A stretch of DNA of 32,000 nt from Psychrobacter cryohalolentis K5 (GTDB lineage Bacteria; Pseudomonadota; Gammaproteobacteria; Pseudomonadales; Moraxellaceae): assembly GCF_000013905.1 (NCBI RefSeq), contig NC_007969.1:2910001-2942000 (forward strand), read 5' to 3'. The translations under genes were made by a program, and so were the position numbers. Positions 1-20,735 of the stretch are shown in pieces; positions within the stretch are counted from its first letter, which is position 1, and every line of letters starts with the position of its first letter. A model generated the notes under the pieces. That model had not been told where the DNA came from. It saw only the letters and a program-made list of their open reading frames with translations, and ran no database searches.

Positions 1-1
1 T

Positions 2-2254
2 TATCTATCATTGATAAACTTGGCAGCTGATTATGACTATAAGTTAATTATCCTGATTACTGGCATTCACAATAACTTAAGATCACAAACTCAAAAGCGG
101 GTTAATAAAGGATTTATAGGTGTCAACAGTGAGGAGCAAAAACTTACAGGAGTTGGGGTTACTAATAACCCAGTGCTTGATAAAGAAATTAAAGCGAAAC
201 AGCCACACTGTTTAACAAGCTTAACTGAAGACTTTAGCGGAAAAATTCGTAAGACAACGGCAGTTCGATTGGAGAACGCTAAGAACCCAGTCATCATGGT
301 CATTAAGAAAAACCATCATACTTTAGGTAATGTGATTAAATGGCTGAGAAATAATGAACAGGGTCAACGCTTTATTAACGAGCCTGTACTAATTATTGAC
401 GATGAAGCAGACAATGCTTCAATTAATACCAGTAAACATCCAAATGAGACGACAAAAATTAATGGGCAAATAAGAGAGACTTTTAACTTGTTTCGTCAGG
501 GTTCTTATATCGGTTACACAGCCACCCCATTTGCGAATATATTTATAGATCCTGCCAACCACGATGAAGCTTTGGCAGACGATTTGTTTCCTAAGCATTT
601 TATTTTTACGCTTGTACCACCATCGAATTATCTAGGCCCAGCCCAGTTTTTCTTAGGAGAAGATGGTGAGCCTAATTACGACTCTCCTTACGTAGAGTTC
701 ATCCAAGATAATGAAGATAGTATCCCGTTAAAAAAACCTAAAGACTTTGTTCTTACTGAACTTCCTAAAAGTTTGACTTTGGCGCTCTATGAGTACTTGG
801 TAACTATCGTTATTAAAAGTGTACGCTCAGTTAGTAATAAACATACATCAATGCTGATCAATATATCTCATAAAACTCAAGAGCAAGCTGACGCACAATA
901 TCTAGTTAGCCAAACGTTAGAAGAAATCAGACTAGCGGTAAAATTTCATGGTGCTAAACCACAGCAAGAGCGTCTGAAAAACCCACATTTAGAGGGCTTG
1001 TACCGCAAGTTCTTACCTCACTTAAATAAACAGAACGTTGATGAGCTTTTTACTCAGCTACAAAAAGTCATCGATTCAGTTAAAGTAAGAGTAATAAATA
1101 GTGAGAGTAAAGATAAATTAGATTACGATAATTATGAGAACGGTCTAAATGTCATTGCTATCGGTGGATACAGTCTATCACGTGGATTTACTCTAGAAGG
1201 ATTAACTATAAGCTACCTAATACGTAATACCGCCATGGCAGATACGTTATTGCAGATGGGACGATGGTTTGGCTACCGTGAACAGTATGATGATCTCTGT
1301 AAGCTATATATTCCTGACGCTTCATTCGAATGGTATGCATTCATTGCTCAATCTATTGAAGAATTGCGCTCAGAGTTTTCTATTATGGAACAAAATGGTC
1401 TGACGCCAGCAGAGTTTGGTTTAAAAGTTAGAACTAGTAATACTGGGCTATTAATTACTGCACGCAACAAAATGCATCATACAGAGGCTGTTACGCTATC
1501 AGAAAGCTTTTCTGAAGAAGCTTTTACACTTCGTGGTATTGCACTAAACAATTTACTTAGTCAACGTAAATTATTTACTGATTTTGCGCTTAAATCTGCT
1601 GATTTATATGGCTTTAAGCCAGTTTACAACTATGTTAGAGCAGAAAACGATAAGCAATTTCATTTGATTCAAAAAGTTGGCATTGACGAGGTTATCAACC
1701 TACTCAATGAGTATGAGCATTCAATCGATGATAATGGCAGGAAAGAGGCGCTGATATCCTATATTGAAGAACGAGAGGATGAGTTGGCAACTTGGGATAT
1801 TGCAATTCATAAAAGTTATTTAGGTGAAAACGCACTATCTCAGGTTCGTACTTTTGCAAAATCTTGCTATCACTCAGATCATGTCAAAACAGCTGACGGT
1901 GGTGGTCGTATTTTAAGACCATGGGAAGAAGCTTTTGGCTTAACAGATGAGCAGTACGCAAGTGCAGAACAACAAAAAGAGAAATCGAAAGTTAAACAAA
2001 CCGCTCGATTCTATAGAAGAAATAGAAGTCGTCCTTTACTTGTACTCAAGTCTTTCGATCTTTATGTGGGGTCTAAAAAAGAAGGTGATAAAAAGGGTGA
2101 CGATCCAAAATACCAAGATGTACCAGCATATGCGATTAGCTTTCCAAAATCCAGTAACCATAACCCTGTAAGCTACTTGGTTAATAAAGTCTTTATGGAA
2201 GACTACTTTGGTGATGAAGATGAGTCAGACGAAATGGAGGAAGGCTATGAATAA
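2..2254 (+). CDS. SF2 helicase-like / Z1-domain protein, 5'-truncated by the window edge
   Basis: The frame is open from nt 2 with no stop before the TTG at 11, so the N-terminus lies upstream. Helicase-type motifs are present: LIIDDEADNAS (DDEAD at nt 398-412), GYTATPFANIF (motif III-like), and GGYSLSRGFTLEGL...QMGRWFGYR (nt 1253-1279, motif VI-like). I associate that last block with Pfam Z1 (PF10593). The C-terminus is acidic and the stop overlaps the next gene's start. Confidence 0.8.
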   Translation, partial: YLSLINLAADYDYKLIILITGIHNNLRSQTQKRVNKGFIGVNSEEQKLTGVGVTNNPVLDKEIKAKQPHCLTSLTEDFSGKIRKTTAVRLENAKNPVIMVIKKNHHTLGNVIKWLRNNEQGQRFINEPVLIIDDEADNASINTSKHPNETTKINGQIRETFNLFRQGSYIGYTATPFANIFIDPANHDEALADDLFPKHFIFTLVPPSNYLGPAQFFLGEDGEPNYDSPYVEFIQDNEDSIPLKKPKDFVLTELPKSLTLALYEYLVTIVIKSVRSVSNKHTSMLINISHKTQEQADAQYLVSQTLEEIRLAVKFHGAKPQQERLKNPHLEGLYRKFLPHLNKQNVDELFTQLQKVIDSVKVRVINSESKDKLDYDNYENGLNVIAIGGYSLSRGFTLEGLTISYLIRNTAMADTLLQMGRWFGYREQYDDLCKLYIPDASFEWYAFIAQSIEELRSEFSIMEQNGLTPAEFGLKVRTSNTGLLITARNKMHHTEAVTLSESFSEEAFTLRGIALNNLLSQRKLFTDFALKSADLYGFKPVYNYVRAENDKQFHLIQKVGIDEVINLLNEYEHSIDDNGRKEALISYIEEREDELATWDIAIHKSYLGENALSQVRTFAKSCYHSDHVKTADGGGRILRPWEEAFGLTDEQYASAEQQKEKSKVKQTARFYRRNRSRPLLVLKSFDLYVGSKKEGDKKGDDPKYQDVPAYAISFPKSSNHNPVSYLVNKVFMEDYFGDEDESDEMEEGYE

Positions 2255-4367
2255 TCCAACTGATCTTCAAAGCTACTATACTGATCTGATGAATGAGCTC
2301 GACCATAGCTCGACCACGCAGGGTAACTACAAAGAGCTTTTATTCATTGAAAAGATACTTCCTTATATTGAGGAACAAGGCGTCGTTGATGACTTAGAGC
2401 TATACCATTTTTACAAACCAGGATCTCGTTATGGGCGTATTGATGGGTTAGGTTTTAACGGCGATTTTAACGACCTAGACTTAGATCAATTAGAACTAGT
2501 TATACTCATTAACGACTTCGTTCATGATGACAATATTAAATCTTTAACAAATAGTCGCATTGAACAGTTGAAAAAAGCAGGTATTAACTTTTTTAATAGT
2601 GCGTTGAAAAAAGATTTCATTGAAAGCTTAGAAGAAAGTTCAGATGGTTATAGAGCAGCTCAAGAAATATTCCAAAAATATAAACGTATTGAGTCTATTA
2701 AGCTTATCATTTTAACCAATGCTCAAATCAGTAGTCGGGTGGCGGATAAAAAGGAAATAGATGAGGACGTAGATATTCCTCTAAAACTTGATATCTGGGA
2801 TATCAAACGAATCTACGATCTTGAGAGCAGTCAAACAAAATCTGAAGCGATCGAAATTGATTTGAGCGAATGGGGAGGTGCAGTTCCTTCCCTACTGGCA
2901 ACAGAATCAGACGAACTAACAAGCTATTTATGCGTTGTAAATGGACAGACGATTGCTAATCTTTATGATGAATATGGAGCAAGACTATTAGAAGCAAACG
3001 TCAGAAGCTTTTTGCAATTTCGTGGCAAAATTAATAAAGGTATTAGGAAGACGATTAAAACAGAGCCCGAATATTTCTTTAGCTATAACAACGGCTTAAC
3101 GGCTACAGCATCAGATGTGGAATATGATAAAAGCAAACAGGTTATTACCAAGATAAATAACTTACAGATTGTGAATGGAGGGCAAACTACAGCTTCTTTA
3201 TTACTGACTCAAAAGAAAGATAAAGCCGATCTAAGTAAAATAAGGGTTCAGTTAAAACTTAATGTAGTGAGCGATGCAAAGTCAGATGAGCTCATTAGTA
3301 ATATTTCTCGCTTCGCGAACTCTCAGAACGCTATTAAGGATTCCGACTTCTTTTCCAACCATCCTTTCCATCGGACTCTTGAAAAACTATCACGACAAAT
3401 ACTTGCTCCAACGTCAAAAGAAAGGATCAAACCTACACGCTGGTATTACGAAAGAGCGAGAGGCTCTTACTTAAATGCTCAAAGTAAACTAACTGATGCA
3501 GGTAAAAAAGCATTCAGATCTGAACACCCTAAAGAACAGTTAATTATCAAAACAGATTTGGCCAAAATTTATCTCATTTTTGACAAGAGACCTCATGATG
3601 CTATTAAAGGGGCTCAAATAGCATTTAACGGATTTGCACAGTCAATTGAAAAGGTCTGGGATAATAACCCTGAGACAATAAATGAGTATTTTTTTAAAGA
3701 GCTAGTAGCGAAGTTTATTATCTGGCAAGCCTGTAAAAAGTCAGTATATAAGCAGGAAGAGTTTGTTGGTAATACCAAAGCAACCTTGACCGCTTATACA
3801 ATATATATTATTAAAGCTTTAATGGATAAACAAGGTCTTGAGTTCAACTATCCAAAAGTATGGCAAGATCAGGACGTAAATGAATTTTTTCATGATCAGT
3901 TTATCGAGATCTCCATTAAGATAAATGATCTACTCAATCAGTTCAGTGAAGAAACCGGAAATGCCGTATTGTCTATGGCTAAGTCTAAAGAAAACCTAAT
4001 GAAAGTACAGTCTATTATTGATAAGGGTGATTACTTCTCACTAGATATGATGTTTAAAACACAACTAGTTTCTAAAAATATCATTGAAGAAAAGCGTCAA
4101 GATTCAGCTCAGCAAACCAAGACAGTGACTAAAGCTGTAAGTAGCTTGATAGAACTATTCAACACTCCTCCAGCTAAATGGTTAGCTTTAATAAAAGATG
4201 CGGAAGAAAAAGATGTGCTGGATGAAAATGATAAGCAAGTTTTATCACTAGTACCTAACGTTTTACTTGGAAAATCTTTAAAGACACCTACTGATAGACA
4301 GGTCGATTTGATAAATAAAACTTTAATAAAACTCGAAGATAAAGGGGTTTATTTAGAAGTTGGGTAA
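2247..4367 (+). CDS. AIPR-family protein (abortive-infection phage-resistance family, PF10592-like)
   Basis: The translation contains NNGLTATASD and IVNGGQTT (nt 3168-3191), which I recognise as the AIPR core signature. I prefer the ATG at 2247 over the ORF-track start at 2208. GGAGGA at 2236-2241 sits 5 nt upstream, and this ATG overlaps the upstream stop (TAA 2252-2254). Confidence 0.8.
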   Translation: MNNPTDLQSYYTDLMNELDHSSTTQGNYKELLFIEKILPYIEEQGVVDDLELYHFYKPGSRYGRIDGLGFNGDFNDLDLDQLELVILINDFVHDDNIKSLTNSRIEQLKKAGINFFNSALKKDFIESLEESSDGYRAAQEIFQKYKRIESIKLIILTNAQISSRVADKKEIDEDVDIPLKLDIWDIKRIYDLESSQTKSEAIEIDLSEWGGAVPSLLATESDELTSYLCVVNGQTIANLYDEYGARLLEANVRSFLQFRGKINKGIRKTIKTEPEYFFSYNNGLTATASDVEYDKSKQVITKINNLQIVNGGQTTASLLLTQKKDKADLSKIRVQLKLNVVSDAKSDELISNISRFANSQNAIKDSDFFSNHPFHRTLEKLSRQILAPTSKERIKPTRWYYERARGSYLNAQSKLTDAGKKAFRSEHPKEQLIIKTDLAKIYLIFDKRPHDAIKGAQIAFNGFAQSIEKVWDNNPETINEYFFKELVAKFIIWQACKKSVYKQEEFVGNTKATLTAYTIYIIKALMDKQGLEFNYPKVWQDQDVNEFFHDQFIEISIKINDLLNQFSEETGNAVLSMAKSKENLMKVQSIIDKGDYFSLDMMFKTQLVSKNIIEEKRQDSAQQTKTVTKAVSSLIELFNTPPAKWLALIKDAEEKDVLDENDKQVLSLVPNVLLGKSLKTPTDRQVDLINKTLIKLEDKGVYLEVG

Positions 4368-4465: not shown

Positions 4466-4896
4466 ATGCCAGTCAAAATAATCGGTGAGCTTACAGACGA
4501 TGGTGAAACAGTATTGCTGTCTTTATACAGCGATAAGGTAAAAGCAGGCTTTCCAAGCCCAGCAACTGACTATGTGCAAAACTGTATTGATTTGAACACT
4601 TTACTTATACCGCCATCCCGCATCAACTTATCTGGTCGAGGTAGAAGGAGATAGCATGTTGAATATCGGCATCTACCCCAATGACATCTTAATCGTTAAT
4701 CGCTCACTGACAGCTTGTCATAAAGACATCGTGATTGCGCTAATAGATAGACGATGGCTTCACTGCTAGGCAGTTAATATTAGGTGATAACATCATCTTA
4801 CGTGCGCACAATGACAATTATGCCGATATCTTGGTTAAGGGATCGCTTGAATTATTTGGGGTGGTGGTGAGTAGTATTAAACGGTTTAAGCGGTGA
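4466..4896 (+). pseudogene. umuD: umuD-like (S24 LexA/UmuD peptidase) pseudogene, two frameshifts
   Basis: Frame 2 gives MPVKIIGEL...KAGFPSPATDYVQNCIDLNTLLI. A +1 shift near 4610-4612 continues as RHPASTYLVEVEGDSMLNIGIYPNDILIVNRSLTACHKDIVIALID. A second shift near 4748-4752 continues as DDGFTARQLILGDNIILRAHNDNYADILVKGSLELFGVVVSSIKRFKR*. Joined, the three pieces give a ~143-aa UmuD-like protein. Confidence 0.8.
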
Positions 4897-4991: not shown

Positions 4992-5492
4992 ATGAAAATC
5001 ATAATACTTATTATCTTTATTTGTTATCTACTGTATGTATTATCACCTCTTTTGAAAAGGCTCAAATACACAGTCGCTTCAGTAAAAATTAACTCGGAGC
5101 TAGGTTTTGGTATAAGCTATATTAAAAAAGTATGGTTTATATTTGATGTAGTACATCGAGGAGGAGGCTACTTACTTTTAAATATTGTACTATTAACAGC
5201 TTTTCTGATTTTTTACGCAAATAGTCCTGTTTATACACCTTCGAACGACAAGAGCTACGGTTCAAATTATGATAGTGAATATAGTGAAATTCAAATTTAC
5301 GAAGAAGATATAGATTCTTATGACGATGAATATTCCAACGGAGTAGGTTATGGTTACGTAAATAGTTATGTACGTAGTGATGGCACTGAAGTATCAGGGC
5401 ACTATAGAACTGATCCTGATGAATACGAAGAAAATAATTTCAGCTATGACGGTAATGAAAGCAATGACTGGGATTATGAGTATCATGATTAA
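4992..5492 (+). CDS. Hypothetical membrane protein with Tyr/Asp/Glu-rich C-terminal tail
   Basis: 166-aa ORF with an ATG start. It has two hydrophobic segments (IIILIIFICYLLYVLSPLL and YLLLNIVLLTAFLIFYA). The last 90 aa contain 15 Tyr and 24 Asp/Glu by my count. I recognise no family and the RBS is weak. Confidence 0.55.
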   Translation: MKIIILIIFICYLLYVLSPLLKRLKYTVASVKINSELGFGISYIKKVWFIFDVVHRGGGYLLLNIVLLTAFLIFYANSPVYTPSNDKSYGSNYDSEYSEIQIYEEDIDSYDDEYSNGVGYGYVNSYVRSDGTEVSGHYRTDPDEYEENNFSYDGNESNDWDYEYHD

Positions 5493-20426: not shown

Positions 20427-20502
20427 GGGGCTATAGCTCAGTTGGTAGAGCACTTGCATGGCATGCAAGGGGTCAACGGTTCGACTCCGTTTAGCTCCAC
20501 CA
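20427..20502 (+). tRNA. tRNA-Ala (anticodon GGC)
   Basis: Folded by hand into a 76-nt cloverleaf. Acceptor GGGGCTA/TAGCTCC has the G3:U70 alanine identity pair, the anticodon arm is CTTGC-ATGGCAT-GCAAG, the T-loop is TTCGACT, and CCA is encoded. Confidence 0.9.
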
Positions 20503-20659: not shown

Positions 20660-20735
20660 GTCCCCATCGTCTAGAGGCCTAGGACACCGCCCTTTCACGG
20701 CGGTAACGGGGGTTCGAATCCCCCTGGGGACGCCA
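20660..20735 (+). tRNA. tRNA-Glu (anticodon TTC)
   Basis: 76 nt. Acceptor GTCCCCA/TGGGGAC, anticodon arm CCGCC-CTTTCAC-GGCGG, T-arm GGGGG-TTCGAAT-CCCCC, and CCA is encoded. Confidence 0.9.

What the first reader, a model, noticed from the sequence alone, without database searches (positions are those of the whole stretch)
1..4367. Translationally coupled SF2-helicase/Z1 + AIPR gene pair: a predicted but experimentally uncharacterised defence module, cut by the window edge
The first ORF carries SF2 helicase motifs (DEAD at 398-412, TATP, QMGRWFGYR at 1253-1279) in the arrangement I associate with the Z1 domain. The second carries the AIPR signature IVNGGQTT (3168-3191). The AIPR ATG (2247) overlaps the Z1 stop (2252-2254) and follows GGAGGA, which suggests co-translation and fixed stoichiometry. 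Comparative-genomics work on MORC-like ATPases in restriction-modification contexts and on defence islands reported Z1 and AIPR as linked genes. In those reports they sit next to cytosine methyltransferases, GHKL-type ATPases and PD-(D/E)xK nucleases. As far as I know, no mechanism or phage phenotype has been shown for the pair. The Z1 gene is truncated here, so further partners may lie just upstream. This is the most plausible undescribed system in the window.
Basis: partly seen in the sequence, partly recalled or inferred. Interest (0 to 1): 0.8.

Follow-up and report, generated by a model that had tools for sequence, protein, structure and literature searches.

The report
Three-gene Mza phage-defence cassette lacking nuclease

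Summary

The pair hits PADLOC and NCBIfam MzaC and MzaE. mzaABCDE is cited as a validated anti-phage system (Gao 2020), was re-tested in E. coli against T4, and has a four-gene Serratia subtype (SDIC2).

There is no methyltransferase in the operon, no sigma-like MzaA and no PD-(D/E)xK MzaD.

The three genes stay intact, keep all ATPase and AIPR motifs, have dN/dS of 0.05-0.08, and move as an exact three-ORF cassette between unrelated contexts.

Verdict: a real defence cassette and a new MzaD-less variant of a known family. The mechanism of the whole family is still unknown. Interest is moderate.

The parts
1..2254 (+). [not shown]
398..412 (+). Helicase motif II (Walker B), LIIDDEADNAS
   Evidence: Invariant in 45 homologues and >=90% conserved in 73 loci.
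518..529 (+). Helicase motif III, GYTATPFANIF
770..1441 (+). [not shown]
2236..2254 (+). [not shown]
   Evidence: The B/C junction on L001 is equally tight (AAGGAATAAATCATG).
2247..4367 (+). mzaE-like AIPR gene, 706 aa, complete.
   Evidence: Pfam AIPR_N + AIPR. PADLOC MzaE 7.4e-77. NCBIfam MzaE is the only hit: 323 bits against a cut-off of 1050. The exact protein was found on Psychrobacter contig CAJGYZ010000006.1.
2343..2816 (+). AIPR_N domain (residues 33-190). The AF2 model shows an alpha/beta unit with one invariant Asp (D66) but no conserved (D/E)xK.
   Evidence: hhalign against the MzaD nuclease profile gives probability 0.3%.
2988..3938 (+). AIPR core (residues 248-564) with invariant blocks LEANVRSFLQFRG, FFSYNNGLTATA, QIVNGGQTT (3168-3191), SNHPFH, WYYERARG and KTDLAK.
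   Evidence: Weak but repeated fold similarity to ParB/DndB/DUF262/GmrSD-N proteins.
3939..4364 (+). All-helical C-terminal extension of AIPR (residues 565-706). It is absent from the 597-aa canonical MzaE but present in the closest BCDE relatives.
   Evidence: A clade-specific substitution patch lies at residues 493-515 and 573-584.

Best explanation

Shown:
- Homology of all three proteins to MzaB, MzaC and MzaE.
- The tight, overlapping gene junctions.
- Absence of any mzaD or mzaA remnant.
- Derived and repeated loss of mzaD.
- Strong purifying selection and intact catalytic motifs.
- Cassette-like mobility and low G+C.

Inferred mechanism, with lower confidence (about 0.3):
1. The three proteins assemble in fixed stoichiometry.
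2. AIPR, whose core may be a ParB/DUF262-like fold (NGGQT in the place of DGQQR), binds or senses incoming DNA.
4. The MutL/MORC-like ATPase dimer clamps DNA and gates the motor, as MutL does for UvrD.
5. Phage DNA is then inactivated without MzaD. The agent would be an activity of AIPR itself, a host nuclease acting on the processed DNA, or motor/clamp interference with replication.
For: - **Operon.** B stop to C start is 3 nt, and C and E overlap by 8 nt with an SD.
- **Conserved cassette.** Nine independent loci carry B-C-E only, with unrelated flanks. DNA homology between Psychrobacter loci starts about 30 nt before the mzaB ATG and ends at the AIPR stop.
- **Loss is derived and repeated.** The Psychrobacter-type clade has 100% bootstrap and is nested in BCDE lineages. 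D-less L004 pairs with BCDE L011 in 98.5% of replicates.
- **Still functional.** dN/dS is 0.05-0.08 for all three genes. GHKL motifs, Walker A, DEAD, TAT, QxxR and the AIPR blocks are retained.
- **Foreign origin.** GC is 36% against 44% for the rest of the window. Type I R-M, McrBC, integrases and IS elements lie nearby.
- **Defence function of the family.**. In E. coli Mza, MzaD active-site mutants lost protection only against glucosyl-hmC T4, not against T4(C) or T4(hmC), so part of the activity does not need full MzaD nuclease activity.
- **AIPR fold lead.** ParB-N is the best PDB hit (E 0.096, prob 0.72). BFVD hits include DndB-like (0.01), ParB-like nuclease (0.034), DUF262 (0.084) and GmrSD-N (0.096) proteins.
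Against: - No experiment exists for this three-gene form. Every published phenotype concerns 5- or 4-gene systems.
- The proteins score far below the NCBIfam equivalog cut-offs (342/850, 448/1500, 323/1050), so function cannot simply be transferred.
- No effector is identified. AIPR_N lacks a conserved (D/E)xK.
- Every structural match of AIPR outside its own family is weak (at best E 7.5e-4 to 2e-3 to unnamed or HNHc-named viral proteins, TM <= 0.2; the ParB/DndB/DUF262 hits are E 0.01-0.1), and the R of DGQQR is a T here.
- R-M genes lie next to several cassettes, so help in trans is not excluded.
- Translational coupling is inferred from the overlap only.
Confidence: 0.75

Rival explanations
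1. The cassette is only half a system. It supplies a motor, clamp and sensor that work in trans with a nuclease or restriction enzyme encoded nearby (type I R-M, McrBC, HNH) or elsewhere in the genome.
For: - Divergent type I hsdM/hsdS genes sit directly upstream in L001 and L009.
- An N6-MTase lies upstream in L008.
- McrBC and HsdR are nearby in L002.
- An HNH gene starts 26 nt after AIPR in L003.
- Dcm and PDDEXK_7 genes are present in L006.
Against: - The neighbours differ in type, strand and distance in every locus.
- L007 and L010 have only housekeeping or unknown genes around the cassette.
- The unit that recombines is exactly the three ORFs.
- Defence islands put unrelated systems side by side as a rule.
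Confidence: 0.15
2. The locus is a decaying remnant of a four-gene BCDE system that became inactive when mzaD was deleted.
For: 76 of 80 related loci keep mzaD. MzaD is the only component with demonstrated nuclease activity. A neighbouring gene in the window (umuD) is a pseudogene.
Against: - All three ORFs are intact in nine loci spanning 40-100% identity.
- dN/dS is 0.05-0.08 at dS of about 1.
- All catalytic motifs are conserved.
- The junction is a clean 8-nt overlap with an SD.
- The cassette has kept spreading to new sites after the loss.
- The loss happened at least twice.
Confidence: 0.06
3. The genes form a housekeeping DNA-repair or damage-tolerance module: a MutL-like ATPase plus a helicase, linked to umuDC.
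For: MzaB's nearest solved relatives are MutL N-terminal domains (E 1.6e-5). A umuD homologue follows AIPR in L001 and L002, and a umuC-like gene precedes the cassette in L002.
Against: - The umuD linkage is confined to two loci, and the gene is frameshifted in the window.
- The distribution is patchy and GC is low.
- The cassette occurs in integrase, IS and prophage contexts.
- Its closest families are a validated anti-phage system.
Confidence: 0.03

Closest known systems
Mza (mzaABCDE) anti-phage system (Gao et al. 2020, Science; E. coli homologue tested in bioRxiv 10.1101/2022.06.16.496414)
   Different: There is no MzaA (sigma-70-like) and no MzaD (PD-(D/E)xK nuclease). Identity to a canonical locus is only 29-36%. 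Scores fall below the equivalog cut-offs. AIPR is about 110 aa longer at the C-terminus than the 597-aa MzaE.
Four-gene B-C-D-E loci, the majority form found here in Campylobacterota, Alpha-/Gammaproteobacteria, Chloroflexota and others; probably also Serratia SDIC2, a four-gene 'novel mza subtype' with >=1000-fold protection
   Same: These are the nearest relatives of the window proteins (38-40% identity for the Sulfurimonas loci). The proteins have the same lengths, including the long AIPR. They also lack MzaA.
[not shown]
   Different: H.CglI is 632 aa and works with an R-subunit (site recognition plus nuclease domains) and a methyltransferase. The protein here is 895 aa, with a helical N-terminal region and a different 250-aa C-terminal region. 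Its partners are a GHKL ATPase and AIPR, with no R-subunit and no MTase. No sequence hit to the solved H.CglI C-domain was found.
Prokaryotic MORC/paraMORC - SF2 helicase operons (Iyer, Abhiman, Aravind 2008, PMC2292703)
   Same: This matches the third operon type described there: a GHKL+S5 ATPase next to the SF2 helicase with the DThhQXuRhFG motif (here ADTLLQMGRWFG), often with AIPR.
   Different: That work predicted R-M systems with methylases and RE-fold or Vsr nucleases. This lineage carries neither in the operon.
DUF262/ParB-like sensor domains of GmrSD, BrxU, SspE and DndB (analogy for the AIPR core only)
   Same: A beta-strand, Gly-rich turn and helix carry IVNGGQTT where those families have (I/V)DGQ(Q/H)R. 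Weak fold hits to ParB-N, DndB-like, DUF262 and GmrSD-N proteins recur.
   Different: There is no sequence or profile similarity. The phosphate-binding Arg is replaced by Thr. No DUF1524/HNH partner domain is recognised. Membership is not established.

Membership tests
[not shown]
   [not shown]
Mza anti-phage system (mzaABCDE) | MzaE: AIPR family protein encoded downstream in the same operon | tested here: met
   [not shown]
Mza anti-phage system (mzaABCDE) | MzaB: MutL-like GHKL ATPase encoded directly upstream of MzaC | tested here: met
   L001 5857-7317, outside the window. HATPase_c_3 1.9e-34. PADLOC MzaB 1.6e-90. GHKL motifs conserved.
Mza anti-phage system (mzaABCDE) | MzaD: PD-(D/E)xK nuclease gene between MzaC and MzaE | tested here: not met
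   [not shown]
Mza anti-phage system (mzaABCDE) | MzaA: sigma-70-like protein at the head of the operon | tested here: not met
   Upstream genes are DUF3293, two 61-aa ORFs and type I R-M on the other strand. phmmer with the L005 MzaA finds no + strand match in any of the other 87 loci; the only other hit is a short - strand ORF about 8 kb downstream in L080. The literature says MzaA is present only in some related systems.
Mza anti-phage system (mzaABCDE) | Equivalog-level similarity (NCBIfam NF041932, NF041933, NF041935 cut-offs) | tested here: not met
   342 bits vs 850, 448 vs 1500 and 323 vs 1050.
Mza anti-phage system (mzaABCDE) | Protection against phage when expressed | not testable with these tools
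   Published only for 5- and 4-gene forms.
[not shown]
   GKT (L001 K142, outside the window), DDEAD 398-412, TATP 518-529, SRGFTLEG 1175-1204, QMGR 1253-1264. Criteria from PMC5861437. The SF2 fold is confirmed by Foldseek.
[not shown]
   The operon has none.
AIPR family (PF10592 with PF22879) | Both Pfam domains above the gathering threshold | tested here: met
   300.1 bits against 25 and 101.8 bits against 28.
ParB/Srx-like DUF262/DGQHR domains (for the AIPR core) | Significant sequence, profile or fold match and a DGQ(Q/H)R-type motif | tested here: inconclusive
   [not shown]
   There is no MTase in the operon. Neighbouring MTases differ in kind and orientation, and are absent in L007 and L010.

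The most novel reading that the evidence does not exclude
Probability: 0.3. Interest if true: 0.6.

Novelty: new variant of a known kind. Interest (0 to 1): 0.4.

Why it matters
Mza is listed in PADLOC and NCBIfam and counted in many genome surveys, yet no paper found here explains how it works. The only biochemistry found concerns MzaD.

A lineage that dropped MzaD at least twice, kept the other three genes under strong purifying selection and kept spreading says that the nuclease is not the indispensable part. This fits the published observation that MzaD active-site mutants still protect against unmodified T4.

That gives a concrete experiment: test whether B-C-E alone is sufficient. It also gives a smaller, three-protein target for reconstitution and cryo-EM. 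The result would clarify what AIPR, a very widespread but uncharacterised 'abortive infection' domain, actually does.

On the practical side, a detection rule that requires MzaD or MzaA would miss such three-gene loci; whether PADLOC or DefenseFinder call this one was not tested.

Tried and rejected
- **Hidden nuclease.** The MzaD HMM on six-frame translations and hhalign against sub-domains were both negative. AIPR_N has the helix-strand order expected of a restriction-endonuclease-like core, but only one invariant acid (D66) and no (D/E)xK, so an active PD-(D/E)xK is not claimed.
- **Local DUF262 profile.** No DGQQR proteins occur in the fetched loci, so no local DUF262 profile could be built for hhalign.
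- **umuD as a fourth gene.** Rejected. The linkage exists only in L001 and L002, and the window copy is frameshifted.
- **Substitutions marking a lost MzaD interface.** Most changes shared by the D-less lineages are phylogenetic. Only MzaB E300D and AIPR W584L are convergent in both lineages against the BCDE sister, which is too few to interpret.
- **Literature.** Several broad searches were noise. Gao et al. 2020 is not held, so its content is cited through secondary sources and my own recollection. The PADLOC web-server paper does not mention Mza.
Full report
**Observation**

The first 4,367 bases hold two same-strand ORFs. ORF1 is open from the window edge, in frame 2, to TAA 2252-2254. It contains DDEAD at 398-412, TATP at 518-529 and QMGRWFGYR at 1253-1279. 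ORF2 runs from ATG 2247 to the stop ending at 4367 and contains IVNGGQTT at 3168-3191. GGAGGA at 2236-2241 precedes the ATG by five bases, and the ATG overlaps the upstream stop as ATGAATAA.

**What lies upstream**

The exact AIPR protein occurs on contig CAJGYZ010000006.1 of assembly GCA_904845985.1. The closest named homologues are from Psychrobacter. Window base 1 corresponds to L001 base 7755.

Further upstream, on the other strand, lie a DUF3293 gene, two small ORFs and type I R-M genes. Downstream lie a broken umuD and then housekeeping genes: DUF218, cardiolipin synthase, rlmA and the mur/fts cluster.

**Which family**

PADLOC assigns the three proteins to MzaB, MzaC and MzaE. NCBIfam has equivalog models named 'MZA anti-phage system associated ...'. 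These are the best hits, and for MzaC and MzaE the only hits, but the scores are well below the curated cut-offs: 342 against 850, 448 against 1500 and 323 against 1050.

**What is already known**

- mzaABCDE is attributed to Gao et al. [quoted passage not shown] Gao et al. is not held in the library. From my own knowledge it reported protection of E. coli by a Salmonella mzaABCDE operon.
- An E. coli homologue gave 10^3-10^4-fold protection against T4(C) and T4(hmC), less against glucosylated T4, and no growth arrest.
- Purified MzaD cut DNA. MzaD D187A and P297A abolished protection only against glucosylated T4 (bioRxiv 10.1101/2022.06.16.496414).
- A four-gene Serratia system, SDIC2, described as a probable new mza subtype, gave >=1000-fold protection.

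**What is unusual here**

I collected the genomic contexts of AIPR relatives. Close relatives (40-95% identity) in seven metagenomic or genomic contigs all show B-C-E and nothing else in common. Their flanks were:

- type I R-M and umuD;
- umuC, umuD, McrBC and HsdR;
- an HNH gene, an integrase and IS elements;
- two integrases and a P2-like prophage;
- Dcm and PDDEXK_7 on the other strand;
- plain housekeeping genes;
- an N6-methyltransferase.

The loss of MzaD looks clean on three counts:

- An HMM of 76 MzaD proteins finds nothing in six-frame translations of the nine D-less loci (best E 0.18).
- B, C and E have the same lengths as in the nearest BCDE relatives.

So nothing replaced MzaD.

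**Evolution**

Within the D-less clade, dN/dS is 0.05-0.08 for each gene at dS of about 0.7-1.7. All of the following remain conserved:

- the GHKL motifs (DNSITA, DNGDGM, GRFGLGLK);
- Walker A, DEAD, TAT, the motif V region and QxxR;
- the invariant AIPR blocks.

Between Psychrobacter genomes, nucleotide homology begins about 30 nt before the mzaB start and stops at the AIPR stop codon. The three ORFs thus move as a cassette. A dead remnant would not behave like this.

**Structure-based clues**

The AIPR model (pLDDT 82) has three parts: an N-terminal alpha/beta domain, a conserved core and a helical C-terminus. It has no significant PDB neighbour. The best is a ParB N-domain (E 0.096, prob 0.72).

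Against viral models, after a phage AIPR (4e-13) come weak hits to DndB-like, ParB-like nuclease, DUF262 and GmrSD-N proteins, at E 0.01-0.1. In the model, IVNGGQTT occupies a strand-turn-helix element. From my own knowledge, DUF262-type families carry (I/V)DGQQR at the equivalent element. I therefore regard a ParB/DUF262-like core as a lead, not a result.

**Most likely function and mechanism**

With about 0.75-0.8 confidence, this is an active anti-phage or anti-MGE cassette of the Mza family.

With about 0.3 confidence, the mechanism is as follows:

1. The three proteins form a complex. The overlapping junctions suggest coupled synthesis.
2. AIPR recognises DNA.
4. The MutL/MORC-like ATPase dimer clamps DNA and gates the motor.
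5. The target is inactivated without MzaD, by AIPR itself, by host nucleases, or by obstruction of replication.

The published retention of protection by MzaD mutants against unmodified T4 is consistent with a BCE core activity.

The rivals are dependence on neighbouring nucleases in trans (0.15), a decayed remnant (0.06) and a repair function linked to umuDC (0.03).

**Verdict**

The system is a new, MzaD- and MzaA-less variant of a known and validated defence family, not an undescribed system. Interest is moderate. Its value is as a natural minimal form that makes the role of MzaD, and of AIPR, directly testable.

Noticed in passing
window 4466-4893 (+): A full-length umuD homologue, 86-92% identical in protein to the intact 141-aa UmuD that follows AIPR in locus L002. 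It is broken by two frameshifts near 4607 and 4748, so only a 62-aa ORF (4466-4654) is called. In L002 a umuC-like gene precedes the cassette, giving the odd order umuC, mzaBCE, umuD.
   Followed up: partly
L001 1-4125 (- strand, upstream of the window); L009 1647-4389: Type I R-M genes (hsdS, hsdM, and in L001 an extra 600-aa N6_Mtase+Methylase_S fusion) lie divergently, directly upstream of the cassette in two Psychrobacter genomes. No hsdR was seen within the fetched stretch of L001.
   Followed up: partly
L003 11135-12196: A 353-aa HNH_4 protein starts 26 nt after the AIPR stop in one 71%-identical locus only. It may be a locally acquired nuclease partner or an unrelated neighbour.
   Followed up: partly
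AIPR residue 584 (window 3996-3998) and MzaB residue 300 (L001): A Trp conserved in >=80% of BCDE-type AIPR proteins is Leu in both independent MzaD-less lineages, and MzaB E300 is Asp in both. Clade-specific changes cluster in AIPR 493-515 and 573-584. This may be the former MzaD contact surface, but two positions are too few to interpret.
   Followed up: partly
window 4992-5492 (+): A 166-aa ORF between the island and the housekeeping genes has no Pfam, NCBIfam or convincing PADLOC match (only DruE at E 0.0056).
   Followed up: no
window 6026-32000: Ordinary core genome: DUF218, cardiolipin synthase (two PLD domains, which give weak DrmC hits in PADLOC), RlmA, an MraY-like transferase, MurF/MurE-type ligases, FtsI, FtsL, RsmH, GltX, tRNA-Ala(GGC) at 20427 and tRNA-Glu(TTC) at 20660, LysE, aconitase and DUF3025.
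   Followed up: partly
L089 (MT836482.1) and L090 (MT835895.1): Two 'UNVERIFIED Bacteriophage sp.' contigs from human faeces carry complete B-C-D-E Mza operons. Either Mza rides on phage-like elements or these contigs are misassigned bacterial DNA.
   Followed up: partly
[not shown]
   Followed up: no
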